IMG/VR virus record: IMGVR_UViG_3300045988_183727
Source: a virus
Length of the DNA stretch: 64,000 bases
Strand: one strand, 5' to 3'
Both the position numbers and the translations under genes were made by a program. The notes beneath the pieces are model-generated. The model searched no databases. It was not told the origin of the DNA and was given only the letters and a program-made list of their open reading frames with translations. Below are positions 1 to 57,144 of the stretch, one piece after another. The stretch's first letter is position 1; every line of letters begins with the position of its first letter.

Positions 1-3000
1 GAACCTATCAAGGCAGCACACGATTATATCTGGGACATGATTAACCAGCAGGCACAGATTCCAAGTTTCGCTGTTGGCAGACCTACTCAGACATATAACG
101 ATTTCGAGTTGGTATGGGACGGCACTTCTTGGTCGTTGACAAGAACCGACACCAACAGAGTCCTGAGAAATTTTGACGACTTCGAGTTCAGCCTGCCCGG
201 TGTGAGCACCTTCCAGAGTGGAAACAATCTTACGATTACAGCCACGCCGGAAGCCGCTAAGAGTATGTTGAACGGCATTGTATCGTACCCCACCGAGGGC
301 AATGTGATTGACCCTGATAGCGTCAACGCTTACCTTCTCGTCGCGGGTGGCAGCAAGCAGGATTGCGTTGCTCTTAACGGCACCCCCGACCCTGTTACTG
401 CCTACGTCCGCGCCAAGGTCACAAAGACTACCGGCGATTTGAACATTGCCAAGACCTCCGAGGATGGCAAGGTAGGCGGCGTGAGTTTCACGGTCACGGG
501 CCCCAACGGTTACAGCAAGACTGTGACCACTGGTGCAAACGGTAAGATTGCCATTACCGATTTGCAGCCCGGTACTTATACCGTAACGGAGAATACACCC
601 GACAATTACATCCCGACGCAGCCCCAGTCCGTAAACATCGCAATCGGCGATTTTAAGACGGTGAACTTCAGCAACGTGCTGAAGAAGGGCGCCGTAAAGG
701 TGACTAAGACCTCAGAGGATGGTCAGATTGCTGGTCACACCTTCCGGCTGTCCGGCACTTCCGCAGCAGGTACGGCTGTCAATATGACGGCTGTTACGGA
801 TGCCAACGGCGTGGCTACCTTCAATAATGTTCCTGTGGGCAACAACTATAAGCTGGAGGAAATCAACACCGCAGCGAAGTATGTTGTTCCTGCGGTGCAG
901 GCTGGCGTGGTGGTTGAGTACAACACCAGCACCCCCGCTCAGTTTGAGAACAAGCTGGCTCGCGGCAATCTGAAAATCACGAAGACCTCCGAGGATGGCT
1001 TCGTGGCAGGCATGACCTTCCGGCTGACCGGTACGTCTATCTCCGGTGCAGCAGTCAATGAAACTGCTTCTACCGACGAGAACGGTGTCGTCATGTTCAG
1101 AGAAATCCTTATCGGTAATAACTATACCGTACAGGAAATCAACACCGCCGAGCGGTACGTTGTTCCCGCTGTCCAGAGCAATGTGACCGTCACGCTCAAC
1201 AACACCACCAGCTTGAACTTCCATAATAAGCTGGCTCGCGGCGCCGTTGAGGTTAAGAAGACCTCCGAGGACGGCAAGGTCGCTGGTATCACGTTCCGCC
1301 TGTCCGGTACTGCTATCAACGGCGAGACGGTGGATATGACCGCCGTGACCAATGACGCCGGAGTTGCCACCTTCAACAACGTTCTGATTGGCAATAACTA
1401 CAGCGTTGAGGAAGTGAACACGGCTGCCAAGTATATCGTTCCCGCTGTGACAAACGGCGTGAAGGTTACTCTGGATAACACCACCCCCGTGAATGTCTAC
1501 AACAAGCTCAAGCGCGGCGACCTGCGCGTTACCAAGACCTCTGAGGACGGCATGGTCGAGGGCATCACCTTCCGGCTGCATGGCACTGCCATCTCCGGCG
1601 ATGCTGTTGACCTGACTGCTACCACCAACGCTGACGGTATTGCCATCTTCAAGGATGTCCTGATTGGCGACAACTACACGCTGGAGGAAGTCGATACGGC
1701 GGTGAAGTATGTTATTCCTGCCGTGCAGACAGGTCTCGTTGTGGAGTTCCAGAAAGTTACCGACACCGCTGTGACTAACGTACTGAAGAAGTGGAAGGTC
1801 ACTGTGGAAAAGACGGACGCCGAGACTGGCAACATCCCTCGCGGCGATGGTGTCTTTGAGGGTGCTGTGTACGGTCTCTATAAGGGTGACGAACTGGTGA
1901 AGGAGTACGTTATCGGCAGTGATGGCAAGTTCACCACTGACGAGTACATCTGCGGCTATGATTACACCATCCGTGAAATCAAGGCGCCCACTGGCTATCA
2001 GATTGATGAGGGCGTGTATCGCGTTGGCGCCGAGCCGGAGAACTACCGTATCGAACACAACGTTGCTCCCCAGATTACCTCTGTCGAGGTCATCAATCGC
2101 GGCACATTCGCCATCACCAAGTTCATCTCCGACGGAACCTCCGGTCCCGCTAAGTTCGAGGGCGGTGCAGAGTTCAAGTATTGGCTGCAGTCCGCCGGCT
2201 CTTACGAGAACGCTAAGGATGACGAGCGCGGTATCCTGACGACCAACGACTTGGGTTACAGCGGCAAGTCTATCGAGCTGCCCTACGGCACCTATGTGGT
2301 GCATCAGACCAAGGCCGGCGATAAGGGTGCGGGGCTCGCGCCTGAGTTCACCGTTCTGGTTGGCGAGGTTGACCACGACCATCACGACTTGGCTGTCAAC
2401 AACGGACCTATTACCGCGTATCTGCGCGTTGTGAAGGTCGATGAGCTTGACGGCGAGGTCATTCCTTGGGGTGGTGCAAAGTTCCAGATTTACGACCCTG
2501 ACGGGAACAAGGTGTCCCAGAAGGTCACTTACCCCACGGTAACTTATATTGATACATTCGAGACAAATGATGAGGGTTATTTTGTGACCCCGCTGGTTCT
2601 GCCTTACGGCGAGAACTATCATCTGGTCGAAATCGTACCCCCGAAGGGTTATGAGCTGATGGATACCCCGATTACCTTCAGCGTTACGCCCGATACCATT
2701 TCTTTGGATGCCGAGACCGGTCTGGTGACTGTGAATATCATCGCCGAGGACGAGGCGGTGACTCCCAAGGTCAAGACTACTGCAACCGACAAGGAAGGCA
2801 ACAAGGAAATCGTTCCGGCCACCACCGTCACTATCGTCGATAAGGTGGAATGCACCGACGTTATCCCCAACAAGACCTATACGGTCGAGGGATATCTGGT
2901 GGTTAAGTCCACCGGCGAGCCTCTGCTGGACGCCGAGGGTAATCGCATTACCGCCTCTAAGACCTTCAAGGCTGAGGCCGACTTCACTGGCTTTGTGGAG

Positions 3001-4800
3001 CTGGAGTTCACCTTTGATGCGTCTCTGCTGGGTGGCGAGTCCATCGTTGTTTTCGAGGACCTGAAGCGCGGAAACCGTGTCGTTGCTACCCATGCTGACA
3101 TCAACGATGTTGACCAGACCGTTGTAATCCTGAACCCCAAGATTGGCACCACGGCCAAGAACGCTGTTGGCGGTAAGGAGTTCATGCCTCTGGCTGATGT
3201 GATTCTGGTGGATACCATCTCCTACGAGAATATGCCCGTGGGTAAGGAGTTCATCGCTATCGGTACGCTGATGGATAAGGCCACCGGCAAGCCTGTTACC
3301 GATGCCAACGGCGACCCCGTCACCTCTTACAAGGTGTTCACTCCCGAAGCTGCCACTGGTACGGTGGATGTGAAGTTCGTCTTTGACGCTTCTAAGCTGG
3401 CCGGCAAGTCTCTGGTGGTATTCGAGCGTGTGTATCTGGGTAACGAGATTGTTCCCGGCGACTCCAATAAACCCGTGTTTGTGAGTCACGAGGATATCAA
3501 CGATGAGGGGCAGACCGTCACCATCGGCGTTCCCGAAATCGGTACAAAGGCCGTGAACAACGCCACCAACGGCAAGACCCTCGACCCCGAATCCCGCGCT
3601 GAAATCAAGGATACCGTGTCCTATAAGGGCCTGATTGCTGGAGAGAAGTACACTGTCTCCGGTAAGCTGATGAACAAGGCCACCAACGAGCCCCTGAAGG
3701 ATAAGGACGGAAAGGAAATTACCTCCTCCGTTACCTTCACCGCTGAGGCGTCCGATGGCACCGTTGACGTGTTCTTCGTGCTCGATGCATCTCTGCTGCG
3801 TGGCCAGTCTATCGTTGTATTCGAGTCCCTGCAGTACAAGGACATTGAAATCGCAGTTCATGCCGACATCAACGATGTTGACCAGACTGTGACTGTCAAC
3901 AGCCCTGAAATCAAGACCACCGCTAAGAACGCTGCTGATGGCAAGAAGGAATTCTGGGCCTACAGCAAGGTCGAGCTGGTCGATACCGTGTCCTATAAGG
4001 GCCTGATTGCCGGCAATAAGTACACCGTAATCGGTAAGCTGATGGACAAGGCGACAGGTGAGCCTGTTCTGGGCCGCAACAACAAGGAAATCACCGCCAC
4101 TACCGAGTTCGAGGCCAAATCCTCTGACGGTACTGTGGATGTGAGTTTCGTGTTCGATGCATCCATTCTGGGCGGTAAGACGCTGGTCGTGTTCGAGACC
4201 CTGACCCGCAATGGCACTACGGTCGCAACTCACGCCGACATCAACGATGTTGACCAGACTGTGACCATCAAGCGCATCCCGACCTATTCCGGTCCGAGCA
4301 TTTCCACCACCGCTACCTTCGATGGCAAGGAGAAGAAGAACTCCGTTGCTGGTAAGAACGTAAAAATCGTGGACACCGTCAACTATACCGGCCTGACTGT
4401 GGGCAAGACCTACGTACTGGTTGGTACGCTGATGGATAAGGATTCCGGTGTTGCCCTCAAGGACAATAAGGGTAATCTGGTAACTGCTACTACGACCTTT
4501 ACGCCCAAGTCCTCCAACGGTGCTGTGAATGTTACGTTCAAGTTCGACGCATCCAAGCTGAAGGACCATGCGCTCGTGGTGTTCGAGACTCTGTATGAGG
4601 GTCGTGCTGAGGCGGGTAATGTCATTGCTACCCACAACGACCTGATGGACGGTGCTCAGACGGTGTATTTCCGCGACAGTGTCCAGACTGGCGATGAGGG
4701 CATCGGCCTGTGGGCCATGCTGGGTACGTTCAGTGCCATTGCTTGCTGCGGCACTGCGGTGTTCATGTTCCGCCGCAAGAAGGAGTATGGCGCCGAGTAA
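1..4800 (+). CDS. Giant cell-wall-anchored adhesin (5' end outside the window): SpaA/Cna-B-like Ig repeats, then VaFE / Thr-Gln ester-bond repeats, then a C-terminal SVQTG sorting signal
   Basis: Frame 1 is open from base 1. The track M at 37 has no signal peptide, so the N-terminus lies upstream. Repeats carry TKTSEDGxxAGxTFRLxGT...NYxxEExNTAxKYVxPAV, and later repeats end in SLVVFExL...ATHADINDVDQTV (HxDxxDxxQ). The tail is SVQTGDEG, a hydrophobic helix, then RRKKE. Confidence 0.9.
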   Translation, partial: EPIKAAHDYIWDMINQQAQIPSFAVGRPTQTYNDFELVWDGTSWSLTRTDTNRVLRNFDDFEFSLPGVSTFQSGNNLTITATPEAAKSMLNGIVSYPTEGNVIDPDSVNAYLLVAGGSKQDCVALNGTPDPVTAYVRAKVTKTTGDLNIAKTSEDGKVGGVSFTVTGPNGYSKTVTTGANGKIAITDLQPGTYTVTENTPDNYIPTQPQSVNIAIGDFKTVNFSNVLKKGAVKVTKTSEDGQIAGHTFRLSGTSAAGTAVNMTAVTDANGVATFNNVPVGNNYKLEEINTAAKYVVPAVQAGVVVEYNTSTPAQFENKLARGNLKITKTSEDGFVAGMTFRLTGTSISGAAVNETASTDENGVVMFREILIGNNYTVQEINTAERYVVPAVQSNVTVTLNNTTSLNFHNKLARGAVEVKKTSEDGKVAGITFRLSGTAINGETVDMTAVTNDAGVATFNNVLIGNNYSVEEVNTAAKYIVPAVTNGVKVTLDNTTPVNVYNKLKRGDLRVTKTSEDGMVEGITFRLHGTAISGDAVDLTATTNADGIAIFKDVLIGDNYTLEEVDTAVKYVIPAVQTGLVVEFQKVTDTAVTNVLKKWKVTVEKTDAETGNIPRGDGVFEGAVYGLYKGDELVKEYVIGSDGKFTTDEYICGYDYTIREIKAPTGYQIDEGVYRVGAEPENYRIEHNVAPQITSVEVINRGTFAITKFISDGTSGPAKFEGGAEFKYWLQSAGSYENAKDDERGILTTNDLGYSGKSIELPYGTYVVHQTKAGDKGAGLAPEFTVLVGEVDHDHHDLAVNNGPITAYLRVVKVDELDGEVIPWGGAKFQIYDPDGNKVSQKVTYPTVTYIDTFETNDEGYFVTPLVLPYGENYHLVEIVPPKGYELMDTPITFSVTPDTISLDAETGLVTVNIIAEDEAVTPKVKTTATDKEGNKEIVPATTVTIVDKVECTDVIPNKTYTVEGYLVVKSTGEPLLDAEGNRITASKTFKAEADFTGFVELEFTFDASLLGGESIVVFEDLKRGNRVVATHADINDVDQTVVILNPKIGTTAKNAVGGKEFMPLADVILVDTISYENMPVGKEFIAIGTLMDKATGKPVTDANGDPVTSYKVFTPEAATGTVDVKFVFDASKLAGKSLVVFERVYLGNEIVPGDSNKPVFVSHEDINDEGQTVTIGVPEIGTKAVNNATNGKTLDPESRAEIKDTVSYKGLIAGEKYTVSGKLMNKATNEPLKDKDGKEITSSVTFTAEASDGTVDVFFVLDASLLRGQSIVVFESLQYKDIEIAVHADINDVDQTVTVNSPEIKTTAKNAADGKKEFWAYSKVELVDTVSYKGLIAGNKYTVIGKLMDKATGEPVLGRNNKEITATTEFEAKSSDGTVDVSFVFDASILGGKTLVVFETLTRNGTTVATHADINDVDQTVTIKRIPTYSGPSISTTATFDGKEKKNSVAGKNVKIVDTVNYTGLTVGKTYVLVGTLMDKDSGVALKDNKGNLVTATTTFTPKSSNGAVNVTFKFDASKLKDHALVVFETLYEGRAEAGNVIATHNDLMDGAQTVYFRDSVQTGDEGIGLWAMLGTFSAIACCGTAVFMFRRKKEYGAE
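454..1732 (+). repeat. In-frame tandem Ig-like (Cna-B/SpaA-type) domain repeats within the adhesin gene
   Basis: About five ~93-aa units, each opening with (T/K)KTSEDG and containing TFRLxGT, GNNY and NTAxKY(V/I)VPAV. Borders are approximate. Confidence 0.7.
2659..4672 (+). repeat. In-frame tandem VaFE / ester-bond (Cpe0147-like) domain repeats within the adhesin gene
   Basis: About seven ~100-aa units, each with TTA(K/T)..., VDTVSYxGL, GxLMDKATGEP, VxFxFDAS, LVVFE and HxDINDxxQTV. Borders are approximate. Confidence 0.7.
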
Positions 4801-19629: not shown

Positions 19630-19717
19630 GGAGAGGTGGCCGAGTGGTTGAAGGCACCGGTCTTGAAAACCGGCGATGCGAAAGCATCCGTGGGTTTGAA
19701 TCCCACTCTCTCCGCCA
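19630..19717 (+). tRNA. tRNA-Ser (anticodon TGA), CCA encoded
   Basis: Acceptor GGAGAGG/TCTCTCC, D-arm GTGGCCGAGTGG, anticodon loop CTTGAAA, long variable arm, T-loop GGTTTGAATCC. Confidence 0.9.
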
Positions 19718-19728
19718 AAAAAAAACAA

Positions 19729-19859
19729 GTACGGACGGTATAACCGGAATTAACGCCTGTGGAGATGCATGGTCGTCGCGGAAGCAGGAATACTCTGTTG
19801 GCTGGCAATCACGTGAGAGGTGACGACCAGCACCTTGGGGGAACTGAATACCTGTGCTG
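19729..19859 (+). ncRNA. Omega-RNA-like scaffold, copy A (structured RNA family, 5 copies)
   Basis: GTACGGACGGTATAACCGGAATTAACGCCTGTGGAGATGCATGG...GCTGG-CAA-TCAC-GTGAGAG-GTGA-CGA-CCAGC...GGGGGAAC plus the linker TGAATACCTGTGCTGG. The central hairpin covaries among copies. Confidence 0.7.
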
Positions 19860-20053
19860 GGTATACACCACCCAGAAATAGCAGGGTACTATACCACAAG
19901 ATGCCGCACGTTGAATTTGAGTGGCGGTATACACCACCCAGAAAAAAACAGGGTACTATACCATCTCATTGCACACTGGCATATACCCGTTATCGTAAAG
20001 GATATGTCACGGTTAGGGGTATACACCACCCCGAAATAACAGGGTTGTATACC
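19860..20053 (+). repeat. Hairpin-repeat mini-array A (3 repeats; CRISPR-like layout)
   Basis: Repeats at 19860-19895, 19926-19962 and 20018-20053 (GGTATACACCACCCnGAAATAACAGGGTTGTATACC). The spacers are 30 and 55 nt, and the latter contains a degenerate repeat. Confidence 0.7.
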
Positions 20054-20098
20054 TCGGTATGACGATTATATCCGAAGGAAGCTCATTATCCAAGGAAA

Positions 20099-20117
20099 GT
20101 GTGCAATGATTGCACAC
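20099..20117. repeat. Perfect palindrome GTGTGCAATGATTGCACAC preceding scaffold B (the same palindrome is at 50304-50322)
   Basis: Identical 19-nt palindrome upstream of scaffolds B and C. Confidence 0.8.
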
Positions 20118-20125
20118 TTAAAGAC

Positions 20126-20250
20126 GTACGGATGGTACAGCCGGAATTTACGCCTGTGGAGACGAACTCCGTCGTAGAAGCAGGAACTTCCCATGGCTGA
20201 ACACCGCGTGAGAGGCGGTACAGCACCGAGGTGAGAGCACCTTGGGGAAC
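20126..20250 (+). ncRNA. Omega-RNA-like scaffold, copy B (divergent, no hairpin array)
   Basis: GTACGGATGGTACAGCCGGAATTTACGCCTGTGGAGACG...GCT-GAACA-CCGC-GTGAGAG-GCGG-TAC-AGC...TTGGGGAAC. It ends 30 nt before the ATG at 20281. Confidence 0.65.
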
Positions 20251-29788: not shown

Positions 29789-29855
29789 GATGTTTTCTCC
29801 TTTCTCCCAGCCTGTGATAAGGACTTACGGGAAACCAAAATAAAATGTATATATA

Positions 29856-29992
29856 GAAAAAGACAATCACTGCCCGAAAAGGGAAGTGATTGTCTGAATT
29901 TATGATGTGACTTGAAAAACGGAGATAAAACTCCTTATAAAAATATCTTCGTAATTATACTATTATACTACCACGTTTCGCTATTTTGTCAA
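29856..29992 (-). promoter_or_regulatory. Promoter-leader-terminator cassette 1
   Basis: Minus strand: TTGACA (29992-29987), 16 nt, TAGTAT (29970-29965), then TATAAT-like (29959-29954), GGAG-n6-CTCC GTTTTT, and the terminator AGACAATCACTTCCC/GGGCAGTGATTGTCT + T5 (29895-29856). Confidence 0.75.
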
Positions 29993-30004
29993 CAGCAGCA
30001 ACGT

Positions 30005-30035
30005 AAAAAAAGAAGCTCCCGAAGGAGCTTCTTTT
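30005..30035. terminator. Bidirectional terminator ending the upstream (-) operon
   Basis: A6 agaagctcc cgaa ggagcttct TTT. Confidence 0.75.
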
Positions 30036-36197: not shown

Positions 36198-36235
36198 GCG
36201 TTTACTCCTTTCGTTTTTACTTGTTCTGAATATAT

Positions 36236-36368
36236 AAAAAGACAGTCGTTCCCAAATGAGAACAACTGTCTTGAATATGATGATGTGACTGAAAACGGAG
36301 ATAAATCTCCTTATAAAAATATCTTCGTAATTATACTACTATACTACCACAATTCTTTATAATGTCAA
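36236..36368 (-). promoter_or_regulatory. Promoter-leader-terminator cassette 2
   Basis: TTGACA (36368-36363), 16 nt, TAGTAT (36346-36341), TATAAT-like (36335-30), GGAGATTTATCTCC GTTTTC, and the terminator AAGACAGTTGTTCTC/GGGAACGACTGTCTT + T5 (36272-36236). Confidence 0.75.
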
Positions 36369-36380
36369 CGGAAACGGTAC

Positions 36381-36413
36381 AAAAAAAGAAGCCCCCGAAA
36401 GAGCTTCTTTTTA
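36381..36413. terminator. Bidirectional terminator ending the upstream (-) operon
   Basis: A7 gaagccc ccgaaa gagcttc T5. Confidence 0.65.
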
Positions 36414-40159: not shown

Positions 40160-40222
40160 ATTTTTCTCCTTTCTCCCAGCCTGTGTTAAGGTCTTATGGG
40201 AACAAAAATGTAGTGAATATAT

Positions 40223-40355
40223 AAAAAGACAGTCGTTCTCAAAAGAGAACAACTGTCTTGAATGTGATGATGTGACTGAAAACGGAGACAAAGCTCCTTA
40301 TAAAAATATCTTCGTAATTATACTACTATACTACCACATTTCCTTATAATGTCAA
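40223..40355 (-). promoter_or_regulatory. Promoter-leader-terminator cassette 3
   Basis: TTGACA (40355-40350), 16 nt, TAGTAT (40333-28), TATAAT-like, GGAGCTTTGTCTCC GTTTTC, and the terminator AAGACAGTTGTTCTC/GAGAACGACTGTCTT + T5 (40259-40223). The post-terminator 5'UTR is shared with cassette 1. Confidence 0.75.
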
Positions 40356-40367
40356 CGGTTTCGACGC

Positions 40368-40400
40368 AAAAGAAAAGAGCCGCACAGCGGCTCTTTTCTT
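40368..40400. terminator. Bidirectional terminator ending the upstream (-) operon
   Basis: aaaagagccgc aca gcggctctttt. Confidence 0.75.
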
Positions 40401-43217: not shown

Positions 43218-43262
43218 TGTGTTTTCTCCTTTCTTATTGTGTTGTAATGTAAAAAAATATAT

Positions 43263-43394
43263 AAAAAGACAGCTATCCCTGTCTTGGGATAACTGTCTTG
43301 AATACTTGGTGTGACTGGAAGCGGAGATAAGTCTCCTTATAAAAATATCTTCGTAATTATACTATTATACTACCACAATTATTTATAATGTCAA
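43263..43394 (-). promoter_or_regulatory. Promoter-leader-terminator cassette 4
   Basis: TTGACA (43394-43389), 16 nt, TAGTAT (43372-67), TATAAT-like, GGAGACTTATCTCC, and the terminator AAGACAGTTATCCC/GGGATAGCTGTCTT + T5 (43299-43263). Confidence 0.75.
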
Positions 43395-43404
43395 CAATGG
43401 CAGA

Positions 43405-43439
43405 GAAAAAAGAGGCGGCTTTCGCCTGCCTCTTTTTTT
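43405..43439. terminator. Bidirectional terminator ending the RecG operon
   Basis: A6 gaggcgg ctttcg cctgcctc T7. Confidence 0.7.
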
Positions 43440-47989: not shown

Positions 47990-48300
47990 TAACAGCGTGG
48001 ACAGGGCAAGAAAGGCTCGTTCGAAGGGCTCGTGCCTAAAATGACAATATTCTTGCGATTGTAAGAATAAGCGCCTAAATTGCCCGTCCCGTTTTCTTCT
48101 TTCTTTAATTACACTCATAAGCACAATAAAGTCAGCTCCCTGAGGGAAGTGTGCGGGAGTTGCTTCGACTTTCGCGTTGTTCTCCATGCGGGGAGGTTCT
48201 GGCGGTTCGAGTCCGCACGACGCGCCTTCTGTTTTCGCTGCTTCTATCTTCACCTCCGTCTTTTTAACGAGCAGCGGACACAGAAACATCTCTCAATATG

Positions 48301-48379
48301 ATAGCGTAGCATAACTGGTAATGCCGTACCTCTCTCACAGGTAACGATATGTTGGTTCAACTCCAGCCGCTATTGCCAG
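48301..48379 (+). tRNA. Atypical tRNA-like gene, probable anticodon CTC (Glu), CCA encoded
   Basis: Acceptor GATAGCG/CGCTATT, D-arm GCAT-AACTGGTA-ATGC, anticodon stem TACCT/AGGTA with loop CTCTCAC, T-arm GTTGG-TTCAACT-CCAGC. There is one extra nt between the D and anticodon stems and a 7-nt variable loop. Confidence 0.5.
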
Positions 48380-48484
48380 CCGGCGTTCTACCCACCCCGC
48401 CGACATCAACTCTCTTCGGCGCTGGCGGCCTCCGTGCAGACGGGATTACACGTGATAAGCGGAGGCTGCCAGCACCACCAAAAT

Positions 48485-48560
48485 GCTGGTGTAGCTCAGT
48501 AGGCAGAGCGGCGCACTCGTAACGCGCAGGTCGTGGGTTCGACCCCCACCGTCAGCTCCA
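48485..48560 (+). tRNA. tRNA-Thr (anticodon CGT), CCA encoded
   Basis: GCTGGTG...TAGCTCAGTAGG...anticodon loop CTCGTAA...GGTTCGACCCC...CGTCAGC-T-CCA. Confidence 0.85.
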
Positions 48561-48652
48561 TTCCATACTCATTCTCCTTCAAGTGAAGCCCCCGTGTAAC
48601 AGGTCTTTTGAAAAGTGCTTTCAGCCTCGTTGTGCGGGGGCTTCACGACTAT

Positions 48653-48728
48653 GCTGATGTAGCTCAGTTGGCAGAGCGGCGGATTTGTAAACCGCAGGTC
48701 GGGGGTTCAAGGCCCTCCATCAGCTCCA
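48653..48728 (+). tRNA. tRNA-Thr (anticodon TGT), CCA encoded
   Basis: GCTGATG TAGCTCAGTTGG...anticodon loop TTTGTAA...GGTTCAAGGCC...CATCAGC-T-CCA. Confidence 0.85.
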
Positions 48729-48763
48729 TTAAAACCATGTGCTTTTGTGGTGTTTTTATATGC

Positions 48764-48840
48764 GCGGATGTCGTCTAATTTGGTGAGACACCAGCCTTCC
48801 AAGCTGGTCATTGCGGGTTCGAGTCCCGTCGTCCGCTCCA
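48764..48840 (+). tRNA. tRNA-Gly (anticodon TCC), CCA encoded
   Basis: GCGGATG...anticodon stem CCAGC/GCTGG with loop CTTCCAA...GGTTCGAGTCC...CGTCCGC-T-CCA. Confidence 0.85.
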
Positions 48841-48867
48841 AGGACACCGTAAAGTGTGTCCTTTTTT
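48841..48867 (+). terminator. Rho-independent terminator after the tRNA cluster
   Basis: aggacac cgtaaagt gtgtcct followed by T6. Confidence 0.8.
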
Positions 48868-49229
48868 CTTTATCTGCTTATTTGTCCTGTGTTTTTCGGA
48901 CAACATCGGTGAGCGCAAAAGTCGCCTGAAGCGTGAGAAGCGAGCTGCCTGCATCTGTTTTGCGGGCGGTGGCGTGATAAGGGTGAAACTCTGCGCTTTC
49001 AGTAGCCGTAAGCAGGTGAGCAAAAGTCTCTGCGAACGCCTGCATGGTTCGCGGGACAAGGGAAGCCGGAAAAATAAGTAAACGCGGGCCGAGCGCAGAG
49101 GTTGTTGGCGTATTCCAGACGTGGGTGCTGCCTTTTATGCTGTGCTTGTTTGCGTGGGGTCCGGTGTTCTCGCAGTCTGGATGGTTGCTGCGAGAGGTGC
49201 CAAAACTTATTGCGAAAGGACGGAGTTCT

Positions 49230-50288
49230 ATGCCAACTACATTTCAAGCGTTTAAGTATCGCATTTACCCGACTGATGAGCAGGTCGAAATCATTGAAAA
49301 GACTTTCAAGTGCTGCCGGTTTGTGTGGAACCATTTCCTTGAGCGAACCTCCAAAATCTATGACCGTCGGCAGGAAAAGATGACGACCTTCGACTGTATG
49401 AAGGTTCTCACGGAGATGCGGGAGCGCTGGCCTTGGCTTGCGGACTGCGGCTGTACGGCAGAGAGATATGCCATCATTGATTTGTTTGAGGCGCGAAAGG
49501 CGTTCTTCCGCCGCATTAAAGCGGGGGAGAAGCCCGGTTATCCCAAATTTAAGGGCGCGTCCCATCCGACACAGAGTTTTACGACCGCTGGTACTATCTA
49601 TGTGACGGACGATTACATTCAGGTTCCGTTTGGAGGACAGTATCAGAAAATCAACAAGCTCAGGCGAGGGACGGGGCGCCCCATCGAAGGGTCTCCCCGC
49701 GAGGTCACTATTTCTCGGTCTGCTACCGGAAAATACTGGGCATCTGTCTGCTGTAAAGTAGAGCGAGACACGCTGCCTATTGTGGACGGCGAGGTGGGAA
49801 TCAGTCTCGGCCTGAAGGAGTTGGCTATTGACAGCAACGGCGTTCACTATGAGAACCCGAAGCATCTGAGCAAGTCTGCAAAGCGGTTGGCACGTGAGCA
49901 GCGGCGTCTATCCCGCAAGAAGAAGGGCTCTGTCAACTACGAGAAGCAGCGGCGCAAGGTAGCCGGCGTCCATGAGCATATTGCCAATCAGCGCAATGAC
50001 TACCGGCATAAAATCAGCCGTGAACTTGTCAACGCAAACCAGCTTATTGCCGTTGAGAAGGTGGCCGTTAAGCCCTTAGTTGAGGGCAATGAGCAGGCTA
50101 AAAGCATCCTCGATGCCGGCTGGTCTGAACTTACCGGTATGATAAAGTATAAGGCGGACTGGGCTGGACGCACTCTGGTGGACGTAGATACCGCCACCGT
50201 AGCACCGGAAGCCAAGCATGATGAGGCACTGGCACAGGTCGTGCTGTCCGAAGGTCAGCGCATGGCTTCCGAGCAGAAGCCTGCCTAA
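49230..50288 (+). CDS. TnpB-like protein, predicted nuclease-dead and C-terminally truncated (TldR-like); could alternatively be a decaying tnpB
   Basis: N-terminal FKYRIYPTDEQ (OrfB/TnpB). RuvC-I reads VGISLGLK where the family consensus has GIDLG (D to S). RuvC-II has IAVEKV. The ORF stops after KADWAGRTLVDVD, before the zinc finger and RuvC-III. ATG at 49230 follows aaaggacgg. Confidence 0.8.
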   Translation: MPTTFQAFKYRIYPTDEQVEIIEKTFKCCRFVWNHFLERTSKIYDRRQEKMTTFDCMKVLTEMRERWPWLADCGCTAERYAIIDLFEARKAFFRRIKAGEKPGYPKFKGASHPTQSFTTAGTIYVTDDYIQVPFGGQYQKINKLRRGTGRPIEGSPREVTISRSATGKYWASVCCKVERDTLPIVDGEVGISLGLKELAIDSNGVHYENPKHLSKSAKRLAREQRRLSRKKKGSVNYEKQRRKVAGVHEHIANQRNDYRHKISRELVNANQLIAVEKVAVKPLVEGNEQAKSILDAGWSELTGMIKYKADWAGRTLVDVDTATVAPEAKHDEALAQVVLSEGQRMASEQKPA

Positions 50289-50303
50289 AGCCGAGCGAGG
50301 AAA

Positions 50304-50322
50304 GTGTGCAATGATTGCACAC
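50304..50322. repeat. Palindrome GTGTGCAATGATTGCACAC (second copy)
   Basis: Identical to 20099-20117. It lies between the tnpB-like stop and scaffold C. Confidence 0.8.
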
Positions 50323-50344
50323 ATTGCCAAGGAAATAAAAACGA

Positions 50345-50473
50345 GTACGGACGGTATAGCCGGAATTAACGCCTGTGGAGATGCATGGTCGTCGTGGAAG
50401 CAGGAATACTCTGTTGGCTGGTAGTCACGTGAGAGGTGGCACCAGCGCTTTGGGGAACTGAATACCTGTGCTG
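50345..50473 (+). ncRNA. Omega-RNA-like scaffold, copy C (cognate position 57 nt downstream of the TnpB-like gene)
   Basis: Same family as A, B, D and E. Central hairpin GCTGG-TAG-TCAC-GTGAGAG-GTGG-CA-CCAGC, ending GGGGAAC plus TGAATACCTGTGCTGG. Confidence 0.75.
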
Positions 50474-50563
50474 GGTATACACCACCCGGAAATAACAGGG
50501 TTGTATACCAATTCATGGCGTCTCCTTTTGGTATACACCACCCGGAAATAACAGGGTTTTACC
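50474..50563 (+). repeat. Hairpin-repeat mini-array C (2 repeats, 20-nt spacer)
   Basis: Repeats at 50474-50509 and 50530-50563. The spacer is AATTCATGGCGTCTCCTTTT. Confidence 0.7.
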
Positions 50564-50663
50564 ATTCGTAATTATAGTTCTTCCCTCCGCTGTGTGGAGC
50601 GTTTTGTCGAAATGACAAAACATTCCTCTTAAATTCTTAAAAACAAGAAAGGAAATAAAGAAT

Positions 50664-51811: not shown

Positions 51812-51942
51812 GTACGGACGGTATAACCGGAATTAACGCCTGTGGAGATGCATGGTCATCGTGGAAGCAGGAATGCTCTGTTAGCTGGTTTTCATGTGAG
51901 AGATGATGCCAGCAGCTAAGGGAACTGAATATGCCTGTGTTG
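51812..51942 (+). ncRNA. Omega-RNA-like scaffold, copy D
   Basis: Central hairpin GCTGG-TTT-TCAT-GTGAGAG-ATGA-TG-CCAGC (TCAT/ATGA covaries with TCAC/GTGA). Linker TGAATATGCCTGTGTTGG. Confidence 0.7.
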
Positions 51943-52155
51943 GGTGTATGAGGCCCTGAAATGACAGGGGTGTATACCATATAATCTGTCGCTTGAGGAG
52001 ACAGGCGTATAGAGCCCAGAAATAACAGGGTTGTATACCCCTTAACCGCGCTCCAACTTTCAATCCTAAGGTGTATAAGGGCCTGAAATAACGGGGTGAT
52101 ACCTCAGTTATTCCTTTTAGGTACATAACGGGCTAAAACAACAGGGTAGTGTACC
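51943..52155 (+). repeat. Hairpin-repeat mini-array D (4 repeats)
   Basis: Repeats at 51943-51978, 52005-52039, 52071-52103 and 52121-52155. Spacers are 26, 31 and 17 nt. The 3' arm CAGGGTTGTATACC is conserved while the 5' arm varies but keeps pairing. Confidence 0.7.
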
Positions 52156-53258: not shown

Positions 53259-53390
53259 GTACGGATGGTATAACCGGAATTAACGCCTGTGGAGATGCAT
53301 GGTCGTCGTGGAAGCAGGAATACTCTGTTGGCTGGTAATCATGTGAGAGATGATACCGGCACCTTTGGGGAACTGAATATGCCTGTGTCG
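53259..53390 (+). ncRNA. Omega-RNA-like scaffold, copy E
   Basis: Central hairpin GCTGG-TAA-TCAT-GTGAGAG-ATGA-TA-CCGGC, whose U-G pair is only allowed on the + strand RNA. Linker TGAATATGCCTGTGTCGG. Confidence 0.7.
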
Positions 53391-53533
53391 GGTATATAGA
53401 ACCCTGAAACGACAGGGTTGTGTATCACAGAATAACTGCGGCAGCGGCATATATGGCTCTGAAACAACAGGGTTGTATACCGCATAAAAAAGGCTATGGT
53501 GTGTAATACCCTGAAATAACAAGGTTGTGTACC
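53391..53533 (+). repeat. Hairpin-repeat mini-array E (3 repeats)
   Basis: Repeats at 53391-53426, 53447-53481 and 53499-53533. Spacers are 20 and 17 nt. Confidence 0.7.
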
Positions 53534-54654: not shown

Positions 54655-55455
54655 GTGAAAACGAAATTCAAAATCCCTCGGTGGGCACTCTTCACCGTTA
54701 TCATTCTGTCCTTTATCGGTGGTCTCTTTGCCATCTCCATGCTGCCTGCTTTCGCATCACGTGAAAGCTCTCCGCCTTTGGCAGTAGCAGAAGCCGCGCA
54801 GAACGAGGAAAAGGACGCAAATTCTGATGCTCAGACTCCCGAAGCAAACGAGACATCCGATGAGCATGGAAGCACTGAAACTCCCGTAGAGGACGAGCCT
54901 CAGGCAGACGATGCTGTCGTCGTTGAAGTGACTCCCTCCGAAGAGCCTGTTCAGGAAACTCCAACCACCTGTTCCTACTGCGGCAGCGTAGAACACACCA
55001 AAGACTACTGTGCCGTCCGTGCCGTGGACAATGGCGCCATTGGACGGCTCCGGATTCCCTCTGTCGGTGTTGACGTGGCTGTTTACGACGTCACTTGGTA
55101 CTCTCTGCAGCACACCACCGAAGGCGATAACTACGCGCAGGCCGTTACAGATGCATGGGACAGCGCCGCACAAATCGTCTATCTCGGCCAGACCGTTATT
55201 GGCGACCATAATAATCAGGGCTTCTCCGCCATCAACAACTGTGCCGAGGGCACTTACTCCTACATCGACATAGGCGACTCTGTCCTGACCTATGTTTGTA
55301 CCGGCATCCAGCATGGTCGCAACCCCGGTGGCTATCTTACCGGAGCCGATGGCGATAGCATCTATACCTCTTACTTCAATCCCAATGGTCTGACGCTGTA
55401 TACCTGTCTCGACCACAACTTCAATGTTGCCCTTGTGACATTCCAGCCTGCTTAG
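54655..55455 (+). CDS. Sortase-like membrane-anchored protein, paralogue 2
   Basis: GTG start follows aagaaagga. Contains CSYCGSVEHTKDYC, LRIPSVGVDVAVY, IGDHNNQGF and LTLYTC. Confidence 0.55.
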   Translation: MKTKFKIPRWALFTVIILSFIGGLFAISMLPAFASRESSPPLAVAEAAQNEEKDANSDAQTPEANETSDEHGSTETPVEDEPQADDAVVVEVTPSEEPVQETPTTCSYCGSVEHTKDYCAVRAVDNGAIGRLRIPSVGVDVAVYDVTWYSLQHTTEGDNYAQAVTDAWDSAAQIVYLGQTVIGDHNNQGFSAINNCAEGTYSYIDIGDSVLTYVCTGIQHGRNPGGYLTGADGDSIYTSYFNPNGLTLYTCLDHNFNVALVTFQPA

Positions 55456-55659: not shown

Positions 55660-57144
55660 ATGACGATGGTCTATGTGCAAAATAAAGACGGTAAACCTTT
55701 GATGCCGACAACTCGCTATTGTTATGTGCGCCTTCTCCTGAAGGAGAAGAAAGCACGAGTTGTTTGCACTACCCCGTTTACCATCCAGTTGAACTATGAT
55801 ACCCCAGACATCACCCAAGACTTGATTCTTGGCATCGACCCCGGCAGAACGAACATTGGTGTCGCTGTCGTCAAGGAGGACGGCCAATGCGTGTTCTCCG
55901 CACATCTGGAGACGCGCAATAAGGACGTACCTCTTCTGATGCAGAAGCGTGCCGGTTTCCGTAAGCAGCATCGCACGTTGGACCGGCGCCGCAAGCGCCA
56001 GCGTCGTGCGAAGGCTGCTGGGACCACCGTTGCCGGGGGTTCTGTCGAGAGATTGCTCCCCGGCTATGAGAAGCCCATTGTGTGCCACCATATCCGCAAT
56101 AAGGAGGCGCGGTTCAATAACCGTAGCCGCCCTGTGGGATGGTTGACACCTACAGCAAATCACCTGCTGCAAACCCACATCAACCTGATTGCAAAGGTTG
56201 CGAAGTTCTTACCTATCACGAAAGTGGTGGTGGAGCTGAACCGCTTTGCATTCATGGCGATGGATAATCCCAATATCCGTCGGTGGGAGTACCAGCAGGG
56301 GCCGTTGTACGGACTGGGTTCCGTGGAGGATGCGGTGTACGCACAGCAGGATGGACATTGCCTGTTCTGCAAGAAGCCCATTGACCATTACCATCATGTT
56401 GTTCCACGCCACAAGGGTGGAAGTGAGACGCTGGCTAACCGGTGTGGGCTTTGTGCGAAGCATCACGACCTCGTCCATAAGGACAAGGCGTGGGCGGATA
56501 AGCTGGTCACACGCAAGGAAGGTATGAATAAAAAGTACCACGCCTTGAGTGTTCTGAACCAGATTATCCCGCATCTCATGGAGTATCTCGGAGGCGAGAC
56601 TCTCTACGATGTCTATGCCACGGATGGTAAGTCCACCAAGGGCTTCCGCGTTGCCAAGAACGTGCCGAAAGAACATTACACGGATGCCTACTGTATCGCC
56701 TGTTCCATTTTGGATGCGAATACGAAGGTCTCCACACCTGCCGAACCCTTTAAGCTGAAGCAGTTCCGTCGGCACGACCGGCAATCCTGCATCCGCCAAA
56801 TGGTTGACCGGAAGTACCTTCTGGATGGCAAGGTCGTTGCAGCAAACCGGCATAAGGCCATTGAGCAAAAGTCCGATAGCCTGCAGGAGTTCCGTGAGGC
56901 TTACGGCGATGCTGCGGTATCGCAGCTCACCGTGAAACCTCACTCGCCCCAGTACAAGGACATGACTCGTATCATGCCGGGGGCGGTGATGGATTTCGGT
57001 GGCGCTGTCGGGATTCTTCAGGGGTCGGAAGGCTTCCATAACGGCAAGCCGGACTACTATAAATCTACGAAAGGAGAACGGGTTTTAACGAGGAGATGTG
57101 CGCTTCTCGCACAGAACGCAGGCATGGTTTTCATTCCCGCCTGA
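55660..57144 (+). CDS. iscB: IscB RNA-guided nuclease (PLMP, RuvC, bridge helix and HNH)
   Basis: DGKPLMPT (PLMP), [14 protein letters not shown] (RuvC-I), Arg-rich [25 protein letters not shown]...[38 protein letters not shown] (RuvC-III). 494 aa. Confidence 0.9.

What the first reader, a model, noticed from the sequence alone, without database searches (positions are those of the whole stretch)
50345..50473. Five-copy structured RNA family (omega-RNA-like scaffold) with compensatory base changes
About 115-130-nt elements occur at 19729, 20126, 50345, 51812 and 53259, all on the + strand and all intergenic. They share GTACGGAYGGTAnARCCGGAATTWACGCCTGTGGAGA... and end in GGGGAAC. A central hairpin has an invariant loop GTGAGAG. 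Its inner stem is TCAC/GTGA (A), TCAC/GTGG (C), TCAT/ATGA (D, E) or CCGC/GCGG (B). Its outer stem is GCTGG/CCAGC, or CCGGC in E, which gives a U-G pair. These compensatory and wobble changes are only consistent with a + strand RNA. Only copy C is next to the TnpB-like gene, so the other four would be orphan guide-RNA genes for the same protein.
Basis: seen in the sequence. Interest (0 to 1): 0.9.

Follow-up and report, generated by a model that had tools for sequence, protein, structure and literature searches.

The report
Guide-RNA arrays for a dead TnpB
The five repeated RNA elements are transposon-derived guide-RNA scaffolds, four of them each leading a small CRISPR-like array of guides, and a mobile element probably uses them with a nuclease-dead TnpB protein to bind and silence the excision genes of rival mobile elements in gut bacteria.

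Summary
Exactly five + strand copies exist, at 19729, 20126, 50345, 51812 and 53259, and they show compensatory and wobble changes.

The shared 5' core is a true TnpB omega-RNA core. The same structured motif overlaps or abuts the 3' end of active tnpB genes in bacteria, archaea and phage contigs, with strong covariation.

Copies A, C, D and E are each followed by an array of 36-nt hairpin repeats separated by variable spacers. In 119 arrays from the window and relatives the modal spacer is 30 nt. Orthologous arrays share distal spacers and differ next to the scaffold, as CRISPR arrays do.

Fourteen spacers from relatives match integrative elements in Vescimonas, a Clostridiales MAG and 22 human-gut contigs. 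They lie on both strands, 13 of 14 have a 5' G, and most fall in the leader, RBS or start of an excisionase-integrase operon.

The adjacent 352-aa TnpB homologue has lost its RuvC aspartate, zinc finger and third catalytic residue. It co-occurs with the arrays in 25 of 26 contigs.

Best reading: a TldR/TranC-like, nuclease-dead, multi-locus guide-array system for silencing rivals. Repression and spacer uptake are inferred, not shown. It is a new variant of a known kind.

The parts
49230..50288 (+). TnpB-like, predicted nuclease-dead effector (TldR-like), 352 aa. The true start is the ATG at 49230, not the ORF start at 49044.
   Evidence: Pfam finds HTH_OrfB_IS605 and OrfB_IS605, with the TNB domain cut after 24 of 60 positions. 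It aligns to ISDra2 TnpB 8H1J residues 7-326 at E 2e-49. The RuvC aspartate is replaced by Ser (GISLGLK), the glutamate is kept, and the zinc finger and third catalytic residue are missing. Relatives are 87-100% identical, with one copy per contig.
50345..50458 (+). Scaffold copy C (the finding): omega-RNA-derived scaffold with the 5' core (P1, P2, P3) and the GTGAGAG-loop hairpin, ending in GGGGAAC.
50459..50473 (+). Conserved linker TGAATACCTGTGCTG between scaffold C and the first repeat.
   Evidence: It is conserved in copies A, C, D and E and in relatives. It resembles the 3' end of the active paralogue's omega-RNA, GGTTGAATATCC.
50474..50563 (+). Array C: repeat 50474-50509, spacer C1 50510-50529 (AATTCATGGCGTCTCCTTTT), degenerate terminal repeat 50530-50563.
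   Evidence: (family D3). C1 is the reverse complement of a ribosome-binding-site and ATG region that overlaps a relative's spacer.
50585..50621 (+). Two terminator-like hairpins that close the tldR, scaffold C and array unit.
19729..19844 (+). Scaffold copy A, 12 nt downstream of tRNA-Ser.
19860..20053 (+). Array A: repeats at 19860-19895, 19926-19962 and 20018-20053, with spacers of 30 and 55 nt.
20126..20250 (+). Scaffold copy B: it has an extra hairpin and no repeat array, and is followed directly by a ribosome-binding site and an ORF.
   Evidence: Relatives (L025, L026, L032, L046) keep this arrangement.
51812..51925 (+). Scaffold copy D.
51943..52155 (+). Array D: four repeats (51943, 52004, 52070, 52120) with spacers of 25, 30 and 16 nt.
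   Evidence: The spacer order is conserved in relatives.
53259..53373 (+). Scaffold copy E, starting 1 nt after the stop codon of the DUF1064 gene.
53391..53533 (+). Array E: three repeats (53391, 53446, 53498) with spacers of 19 and 16 nt.

Best explanation
Each locus is a + strand transcription unit. It consists of an omega-RNA-derived scaffold of about 115 nt, a conserved linker, and then a short array of 36-nt hairpin repeats alternating with guides (spacers).

Proposed mechanism:
1. The scaffold descends from the right-end RNA of an IS605-type TnpB.
2. Each repeat carries a copy of the guide-proximal end of that RNA (GGUUGUAUACC). It also carries a stretch, AACAGGG(U), that can pair with CUCUGUU in the scaffold.
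3. The single nuclease-dead TnpB homologue encoded next to copy C binds the scaffold together with a repeat-derived handle. It uses the spacer 3' of the repeat as a guide.
4. The complex binds double-stranded DNA that has a G immediately 5' of the target. It cannot cut, so it blocks transcription.

The known targets are the promoter, leader, ribosome-binding site and start region of the excisionase-integrase operon of rival integrative elements in gut Oscillospiraceae and Clostridiales. The system would therefore act as element-borne CRISPR interference in conflicts between mobile elements.

Shown here: homology and covariation of the scaffold, the array architecture, spacer turnover, protospacers with a 5' G, loss of catalytic residues, and co-occurrence of protein and arrays.

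Inferred: how the RNA-protein complex assembles, how the RNA is processed, that binding represses transcription, and how new spacers are acquired.
For: 1. Scaffold is an omega-RNA homologue.
- The core begins inside the 3' end of an active 399-aa tnpB in L020, just after DRDLNAAINI.
- It also sits at the 3' end of tnpB in L060 and right after the stop codon of an active 372-aa paralogue in L011, L055 and L046.
- In at least 19 of 45 testable genome loci from Bacillus to archaea, a TnpB ORF ends within about 40 nt of the motif.
- Covariation on 28 diverse sequences: 93.4% of cells paired against 29-43% when partners are slid; 57 double-change cells against 21 in shuffles, with 0 of 500 shuffles reaching the observed value.

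2. Arrays.
- 385 repeats fall into 119 arrays, and every array is preceded by a scaffold.
- Spacer length mode is 30 nt (120 of 266), and there are 121 unique spacers.
- Repeat hairpin: 85.7% paired against 30-49% when shifted; G.U cells 251 against C.A cells 87, which favours the + strand RNA.

3. Spacer turnover is polarised. An example of orthologous arrays is [27 28 29 17 18 19], [15 16 17 18 19], [51 27 17 18 19], [17 18 19], [19].

4. Targets.
- Fourteen spacers match loci that contain no repeats: MT835962, Vescimonas sanitatis L121, Clostridiales MAG L084 and 22 gut metagenome contigs. Identities are 23-30 of 30 and both strands are hit.
- 13 of 14 have G at position -1, whereas the arrays' own repeats end in C.
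- Most hits tile the leader, ribosome-binding site and ATG of an HTH_17 excisionase followed by a tyrosine integrase.

5. Effector.
- The catalytic Asp is replaced by Ser and the C-terminus is truncated.
- All 25 IMG/VR contigs with the protein have scaffolds and arrays, and 25 of 26 array-bearing contigs have the protein, one gene for up to about 8-10 scaffolds in the largest contigs.
- A 79%-identical homologue keeps the scaffold-plus-array arrangement.
- A 46%-identical truncated homologue is followed by a promoter, a mini-scaffold and a terminator.

6. [quoted passage not shown]
Against: - No expression, binding or repression data exist.
- None of the window's own spacers has a directly observed target. 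C1's target is only inferred from its overlap with a relative's spacer.
- Several window spacers are short (16-25 nt), and the repeats within arrays D and E have diverged.
- The scaffold-to-repeat pairing (CUCUGUU with AACAGGG) is nearly invariant, so covariation cannot support it.
- No cas1 or cas2 was found in the window, so the source of new spacers is unexplained.
- Some relatives also carry an active TnpB paralogue with the same RNA core, which could use the arrays.
- Copy B and the short variant 5' of tldR in relatives look like 5'-UTR elements rather than guide genes.
- Only 64 kb of an element of roughly 80-190 kb was examined.
Confidence: 0.68

Rival explanations
1. The arrays serve a nuclease-active effector, so the outcome is DNA cleavage as in classical type V or TranC immunity rather than silencing. 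Candidates are the active 372-aa TnpB paralogue seen in some relatives, or a host or element Cas12/TranC encoded outside the window.
For: An active paralogue with intact D/E/D residues and zinc finger lies about 1.2 kb upstream of tldR in L011, L055, L023 and L046, and it is followed by the same RNA core. TranC systems with TnpB-sized nucleases and arrays lacking adaptation genes occur in Oscillospiraceae and in phages.
Against: The paralogue is absent from the window and from most relatives' loci. Its omega-RNA has a different 3' domain and no repeats. The dead protein is the one that always sits next to an array and co-occurs 25/25. Protospacers concentrate on promoter, RBS and start regions, which matters for blocking transcription but not for cutting.
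Confidence: 0.15
2. The scaffold is mainly a cis-acting leader: a protein-binding 5'-UTR element that controls the downstream gene or a terminator. On this reading the hairpin arrays are secondary.
For: Copy B is followed directly by an RBS and an ORF, in the window and in relatives. A short variant sits directly 5' of tldR in relatives. In the targeted elements, one or two mini-scaffolds plus a terminator-like hairpin lie between a promoter-like sequence and xis-int.
Against: Copies A, C, D and E are followed by arrays and terminators, not directly by genes. Spacers have foreign targets with a flanking motif. The core is the omega-RNA of active TnpBs.
Confidence: 0.1
3. The copies are decaying right ends of IS605-family insertions, with REP-like palindromes, and have no present function.
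For: The core is an IS605-type right-end RNA. Many genome copies lack a detectable tnpB next to them.
Against: No tnpA was found in the window. The copies stay 83% identical per column with compensatory changes. Repeats occur only downstream of scaffolds. Spacer turnover is polarised and spacers match foreign DNA with a 5' G. Co-occurrence with the dead TnpB is near perfect.
Confidence: 0.04
4. The spacers act as antisense RNAs against mRNAs of the rival element, that is, RNA targeting.
For: Several protospacers overlap the RBS and start codon.
Against: Spacers occur in both orientations relative to xis. u0, u22 and u104 are sense and cannot pair with the mRNA. The conserved G on the DNA flank fits recognition of double-stranded DNA by TnpB/Cas12-type proteins.
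Confidence: 0.03

Closest known systems
TldR (TnpB-like nuclease-dead repressors; Wiegand et al., PMC10705468; Xiao et al., 10.64898/2026.09.22.753285)
   Same: It is a TnpB homologue with a deteriorated RuvC site and a C-terminal truncation. There is no tnpA in the window. A guide RNA with an omega-RNA-type scaffold is encoded next to it. It is carried by a mobile element. Guides match promoter-proximal DNA.
   Different: The TldRs searched in that paper use one adjacently encoded guide RNA; a word search found no mention of guide arrays. Here one gene serves several scaffold loci per element (five in the window, up to about 8-10 in the largest related contigs), most of them leading multi-guide arrays that turn over. 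The targets are rival mobile elements' xis-int control regions, not host fliC or oppA. The protein clade is distinct and known only from metagenomes.
TranC (transposon-CRISPR intermediates; described; LaTranC structures 9jfo and 9jfq)
   Same: A TnpB-sized protein is linked to short arrays of 32-38-nt repeats without nearby adaptation genes. The idea that the repeat derives from the 3' part of the omega-RNA also applies. Both occur in Oscillospiraceae and phages.
   Different: TranCs are active nucleases with a separate tracrRNA. Here the protein is predicted to be dead, and every array keeps a full scaffold fused upstream in the same orientation. Sequence similarity to LaTranC is weak (E 1e-11) compared with ISDra2 TnpB (E 2e-49).
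Nuclease-dead Cas12f systems (Hoffmann et al., PMC13472631)
   Same: [quoted passage not shown] Some members sit next to CRISPR arrays whose guides hit promoters, and their loci mix full-length guide RNAs with repeat arrays.
   Different: Those are Cas12f-lineage proteins of Bacteroidetes, often partnered with a sigma factor to activate transcription, and chromosomal. This one is a 352-aa ISDra2-like TnpB derivative on a mobile element of Firmicutes, with no sigma-factor partner seen.
Type IV-A CRISPR-Cas on plasmids (from my own knowledge, not checked here)
   Same: It is a nuclease-free, element-borne system that silences competing mobile elements and lacks its own adaptation genes.
   Different: The effector is unrelated (a multi-subunit type IV complex with DinG) and no omega-RNA scaffold is involved.

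Membership tests
TnpB omega-RNA (right-end RNA) | Lies at or overlaps the 3' end of a tnpB gene on the same strand | tested here: met
   The homologous core overlaps or abuts active tnpB in L020, L060, L011, L055 and L046, and in at least 19 of 45 genome loci. In the window, copy C starts 57 nt after the truncated tnpB-like gene. The other four copies are detached from any tnpB.
TnpB omega-RNA (right-end RNA) | Conserved secondary structure supported by covariation | tested here: met
   helices P1 and P3 have changes on both sides (57 cells against 21 in shuffles, 0 of 500 shuffles reaching it), with 93.4% of cells paired. One search covers the GTGAGAG hairpin.
TnpB omega-RNA (right-end RNA) | Variable guide immediately 3' of the scaffold, at the transposon boundary | tested here: not met
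   The sequence after GGGGAAC is a conserved linker plus the first repeat. Variable guides follow the repeats instead.
TnpB omega-RNA (right-end RNA) | Embedded in an IS200/IS605 or IS607 element with tnpA and transposon ends | tested here: not met
   No Y1 or serine TnpA was found next to any copy. Pfam and PHROG scans of 59 window ORFs show no Y1 transposase.
TldR | TnpB homologue with an inactivated RuvC site | tested here: met
   Asp is replaced by Ser (GISLGLK), and the zinc finger and third catalytic residue are lost.
TldR | Adjacently encoded guide RNA with an omega-RNA-type scaffold | tested here: met
   Scaffold C lies 57 nt downstream, and the arrangement is conserved in homologues of 79-100% identity.
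TldR | Guide complementary to a promoter region next to a target-adjacent motif | tested here: inconclusive
   This is met for 14 spacers of relatives, with a 5' G and mostly xis leader, RBS or start positions. No target was found directly for the window's own spacers.
TldR | RNA-guided DNA binding that represses transcription | not testable with these tools
   This needs ChIP-seq, RIP-seq and reporter assays.
CRISPR array (type V-like / TranC) | Direct repeats of constant length separated by unique spacers of near-constant length | tested here: met
   Repeats are 36 nt and the spacer mode is 30 nt (29-31 nt in 153 of 266), with 121 unique spacers. Within the window some spacers are 16-25 or 55 nt, and the repeats of arrays D and E have diverged.
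CRISPR array (type V-like / TranC) | Spacers match foreign genetic elements next to a conserved flanking motif | tested here: met
   13 of 14 have G at position -1 on the 5' side.
CRISPR array (type V-like / TranC) | Polarised spacer gain at one end of the array | tested here: met
   Orthologous arrays share distal spacers and differ at the scaffold-proximal end.
CRISPR array (type V-like / TranC) | Adaptation genes cas1 and cas2 in the locus | tested here: not met
   The PADLOC scan of 59 window ORFs shows no Cas1, Cas2 or Cas4 among the 25 best families, and the unlisted families are weaker than E 3e-5. The rest of the element was not available.
CRISPR array (type V-like / TranC) | tracrRNA with an anti-repeat that pairs with the repeat | tested here: inconclusive
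   RNAalifold pairs scaffold CUCUGUUG with UAACAGGG of the first repeat, but the columns hardly vary. The contingency test was uninformative.
Rfam families | Match to any curated covariance model | tested here: not met
   There are no relevant hits at gathering or E <= 10 thresholds.

The most novel reading that the evidence does not exclude
This is a living intermediate between omega-RNA and CRISPR. A nuclease-dead TnpB on a large mobile element is served by several loci, in each of which an intact omega-RNA scaffold is still fused to a spacer-acquiring repeat array. The system works as adaptive CRISPR interference aimed at the excision switch of rival integrative elements. Those rivals in turn carry scaffold look-alikes in the leader of their xis-int operon, as a sensor or decoy for the same protein.
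Probability: 0.3. Interest if true: 0.88.

Novelty: new variant of a known kind. Interest (0 to 1): 0.74.

Why it matters
- It would be a natural example of multiplexed, nuclease-free, RNA-guided silencing built on a 352-aa TnpB derivative.
- It links two recent discoveries that have so far been described separately: TldR repressors and transposon-to-CRISPR intermediates.
- The fused scaffold-plus-array layout shows one concrete way a single fixed guide could have become an array.
- The targets make a testable case that mobile elements fight each other by blocking excision and integration rather than by cutting DNA.
- The minimal 5'-G requirement and the small protein size are also of practical interest for compact CRISPRi tools.

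Tried and rejected
- Rfam at gathering and permissive thresholds: no family.
- Similarity of the locus to GenBank phages: none.
- Single-sequence folding: z-scores of -0.96 on the + strand and -0.79 on the - strand, uninformative.
- Self-targets of the window's spacers in the window and in 76 related loci: only chance-level hits. These included a 13/16 match of C2 to a 4-copy promoter-like repeat, with an expected count of about 0.45.
- Spacers against plasmids: no match.
- Exact-pattern scans for two targets in viral contigs, genomes and metagenomes gave nothing in four attempts. A degenerate pattern then worked.
- RNAduplex search for an anti-repeat: dominated by large interior loops. The contingency test of scaffold position 75 against repeat position 20 gave no signal.
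- Candidate guides directly after GGGGAAC in copy B and in the short variants: no targets.
- An early tblastn used a frame-shifted query because the start coordinate was off by one; it was redone correctly.
- I rejected the idea that the hairpins are plain terminators or REP elements. They lack T-runs, occur only behind scaffolds, and flank spacers that match foreign DNA.

Full report
**Observation.** The repeat finder reports a four- to five-member family at 19720, 20120, 50336, 51803 and 53250 (families D2 and D8). A covariance model of the 5' core finds these five and no others in the window, all on the + strand, at 65-72 bits. No Rfam family matches.

The repeat finder also reports 11 copies of a roughly 36-nt hairpin, GGTATACACCACCCGGAAATAACAGGGTTGTATACC (family D3). 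A scan gives 12 copies, all on the + strand and all directly downstream of scaffolds A, C, D and E. Variable stretches separate them.

An exact-pattern scan of IMG/VR returned 76 loci from about 30 contigs of 5-372 kb, with up to about 10 scaffold matches in the largest related contigs. Across the window and these loci, an HMM of the repeat finds 385 repeats in 119 arrays of 1-7 repeats. Every array is preceded by a scaffold. Spacer length peaks sharply at 30 nt (120 of 266; 153 of 266 are 29-31 nt), and there are 121 unique spacers.

When arrays are grouped by their downstream flank, orthologous arrays share the distal spacers and differ next to the scaffold. One example is [27 28 29 17 18 19], [15 16 17 18 19], [51 27 17 18 19], [17 18 19], [19]. 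This is the pattern left by polarised spacer gain in CRISPR arrays.

**The scaffold is an omega-RNA.**
- In locus L020 an intact 399-aa TnpB carries the motif ATACGG..CCGGAATTGACGCCTGTGGAGA inside its last codons, just after DRDLNAAINI. L060 shows the same arrangement.
- Some relatives carry an active 372-aa paralogue, 51% identical, and the model finds the same core immediately after its stop codon.
- A scan of one genome per species found the core in 57 loci, from Bacillus, Ktedonospora, Lachnospiraceae, Vescimonas, Methanosarcinales and others. In at least 19 of 45 loci with enough upstream sequence, an ORF with the TnpB zinc finger and DRDxNA motif ends within about 40 nt of it.
- On 28 diverse sequences, the three-helix fold (P1 hairpin, and long-range P2 enclosing P3) is 93.4% paired, against 29-43% when partners are slid. 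It has 57 double-change cells against 21 in shuffles, and 0 of 500 shuffles reach that value. P2 is invariant and says nothing either way.

**The repeats.** The 3' half of the repeat (GAAATAACAGGGTTGTATACC) is highly conserved, while the 5' half varies, mostly through wobble-compatible changes. The hairpin is 85.7% paired against 30-49% when shifted, and G.U cells outnumber C.A cells 251 to 87.

The repeat's end, GGTTGTATACC, resembles the end of the active paralogue's omega-RNA, GGTTGAATATCC, which directly precedes that RNA's guide. RNAalifold pairs CUCUGUUG of the scaffold with UAACAGGG of the first repeat. This would be an anti-repeat, but the columns barely vary, so it remains an inference.

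**The protein.** The ORF at 49044-50288 really starts at 49230 (MPTTFQAFKYRIYP). Pfam finds the TnpB HTH and OrfB_IS605 domains and only the first 24 of 60 positions of the TNB domain. Against solved structures it aligns to ISDra2 TnpB residues 7-326 (E 2e-49). The catalytic Asp of GxDxG is a Ser, the Glu is kept, and everything after about residue 326, including the zinc finger and the third catalytic residue, is replaced by a short unrelated tail. It is therefore predicted to bind but not cut.

The truncated clade is narrow: three clusters at 79-99% identity, all from metagenomes, nested among active TnpBs of about 370 aa. In IMG/VR, 25 contigs encode the protein, once each, and all 25 have scaffolds. 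Of 26 contigs with array-type scaffolds, 25 encode it. The 79% homologue is again followed by the palindrome, scaffold and array. A second truncated clade (46% identity) is followed by a consensus promoter, a mini-scaffold and a terminator, which is the classical single-guide TldR layout.

**Targets.** A concatenate of 83 spacers hit one GenBank record, a human-gut 'Bacteriophage sp.' scaffold (MT835962), with several spacers within about 230 bp and no repeats there.

The genome scan happened to bring in two chromosomal copies of the same kind of element: Vescimonas sanitatis (L121) and a Clostridiales MAG (L084). A degenerate pattern then brought in 22 human-gut metagenome contigs. In all, 14 different spacers match, at 23-30 of 30 positions, on both strands. 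In 13 of 14 the base immediately 5' of the protospacer is G, whereas the repeats end in C, which would spare the arrays themselves.

In L121 the hits tile the following features, in order:
- a promoter-proximal site;
- two tandem mini-scaffolds;
- the stretch after a terminator-like hairpin;
- the RBS and ATG of an 79-aa HTH_17 excisionase;
- the following tyrosine integrase.

Hits on both strands argue for DNA targeting rather than RNA targeting. The concentration on leader and start regions is what selection would favour if binding blocks transcription.

The window's own spacers gave no direct hit. However, spacer C1 is the reverse complement of the RBS-ATG segment that overlaps a relative's spacer, and its inferred flank is also G.

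**Context.** tldR, scaffold C and its array are closed by terminator-like hairpins at 50585-50621. No promoter consensus lies directly upstream of the scaffolds. Copies A and E abut a tRNA and a stop codon respectively, so co-transcription followed by processing is likely.

Scans of 59 window ORFs show no Cas1, Cas2 or Cas4 among the best PADLOC hits, no Y1 transposase and no phage structural proteins. They do show a serine recombinase, a topoisomerase, a RecG-like helicase, a MazF toxin, a TQ/SpaA adhesin and an IscB-like protein. The relatives are filed as viral in IMG/VR, but from this window 'large mobile element' is the safer description.

**Comparison with known systems.** TldRs are dead TnpBs with an adjacently encoded guide; a word search of that paper found no mention of guide arrays. 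TranCs are active TnpB-sized nucleases with arrays and a split RNA. Dead Cas12f homologues use a minimal 5'-G motif, and some lie near arrays or mix full-length guides with repeats. The present system combines these traits in a different lineage. It has an ISDra2-like dead TnpB, several loci per element (five in the window), each array still fused to a complete scaffold, apparent spacer turnover without local adaptation genes, and rival mobile elements as targets. I file it as a new variant of a known kind.

**Uncertainties.** Expression, RNA processing, assembly, repression and the route of spacer gain are all inferred. The active paralogue in some relatives could be an alternative user of the arrays. 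Copy B and the short variants look like leaders of genes and may work differently.

Noticed in passing
L121:4533-4689 (minus strand); L078:2082-2146; L157 and L137 (two copies each): The targeted integrative elements themselves carry one or two mini-copies of the same omega-RNA core. These sit between a promoter-like sequence and a terminator-like hairpin, just upstream of xis-int. Some spacers (u11, u81, u82) target these mini-scaffolds. They might act as a sensor or decoy for the TnpB-like protein, or as an attenuator.
   Followed up: partly
window 55660-57144 (+): A 494-aa ORF has a strong RRXRR domain match (E 2e-49), which makes it IscB- or IsrB-like. This is a second RNA-guided-nuclease relative in the same window. 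Its own guide RNA was not looked for, and Rfam HEARO did not hit.
   Followed up: no
window 20093-20117 and 50299-50323; L158:7070-7092: A conserved perfect palindrome, AAAGTGTGCAATGATTGCACAC, lies about 10-20 nt upstream of scaffolds B and C, and also upstream of the scaffold in a relative whose protein is 79% identical. It could be an operator or a processing site.
   Followed up: no
window 29846-30011, 36222-36387, 40209-40374, 43248-43413: A four-copy 166-nt repeat family lies upstream of minus-strand genes. It is adjacent to shared RBS-containing segments (TTTTCTCCTTTCT on the + strand) and contains TATAAT-like boxes. These are probably repeated promoter and 5'-UTR cassettes.
   Followed up: no
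window 19630-19717 and 48300-48840: tRNA-Ser ends 12 nt before scaffold A, and a cluster of four tRNAs (Glu, Thr, Thr, Gly) precedes tldR. tRNA processing could define the 5' end of scaffold A.
   Followed up: no
window 48841-49229; L004:96-195, L005:1152-1251: About 390 nt of non-coding sequence lies between tRNA-Gly and the true tldR start. In relatives whose protein is 87-88% identical, this position holds a short scaffold variant that lacks the GTGAGAG hairpin and sits directly 5' of the tldR start codon.
   Followed up: partly
L011:2442-3750 (also L055, L046, L023): An active 372-aa TnpB paralogue has its own omega-RNA, with the same core but a different 3' domain ending in GGTTGAATATCC. 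It abuts a tRNA-like sequence (GGTTCGAGTCCGC). It is present in some relatives and absent from the window. L016:3345 carries a hybrid scaffold that joins the array-type core to this 3' domain.
   Followed up: partly
L159:362-1520: A second truncated TnpB-like clade (321 aa, 46% identity) is followed by a consensus sigma-70 promoter (TTGACA, 17 nt, TATAAT), a mini-scaffold and an intrinsic terminator. This is a candidate single-guide TldR that uses the same RNA core.
   Followed up: partly
window 37-4800, 54655-55455 and the whole window: There is a 1587-aa adhesin with five TQ ester-bond domains and six SpaA domains, with internal DNA repeats, and a weak sortase-like ORF. No capsid, terminase or tail hits appear in 59 ORFs, although relatives are catalogued as viral. 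The element may be plasmid- or ICE-like.
   Followed up: partly
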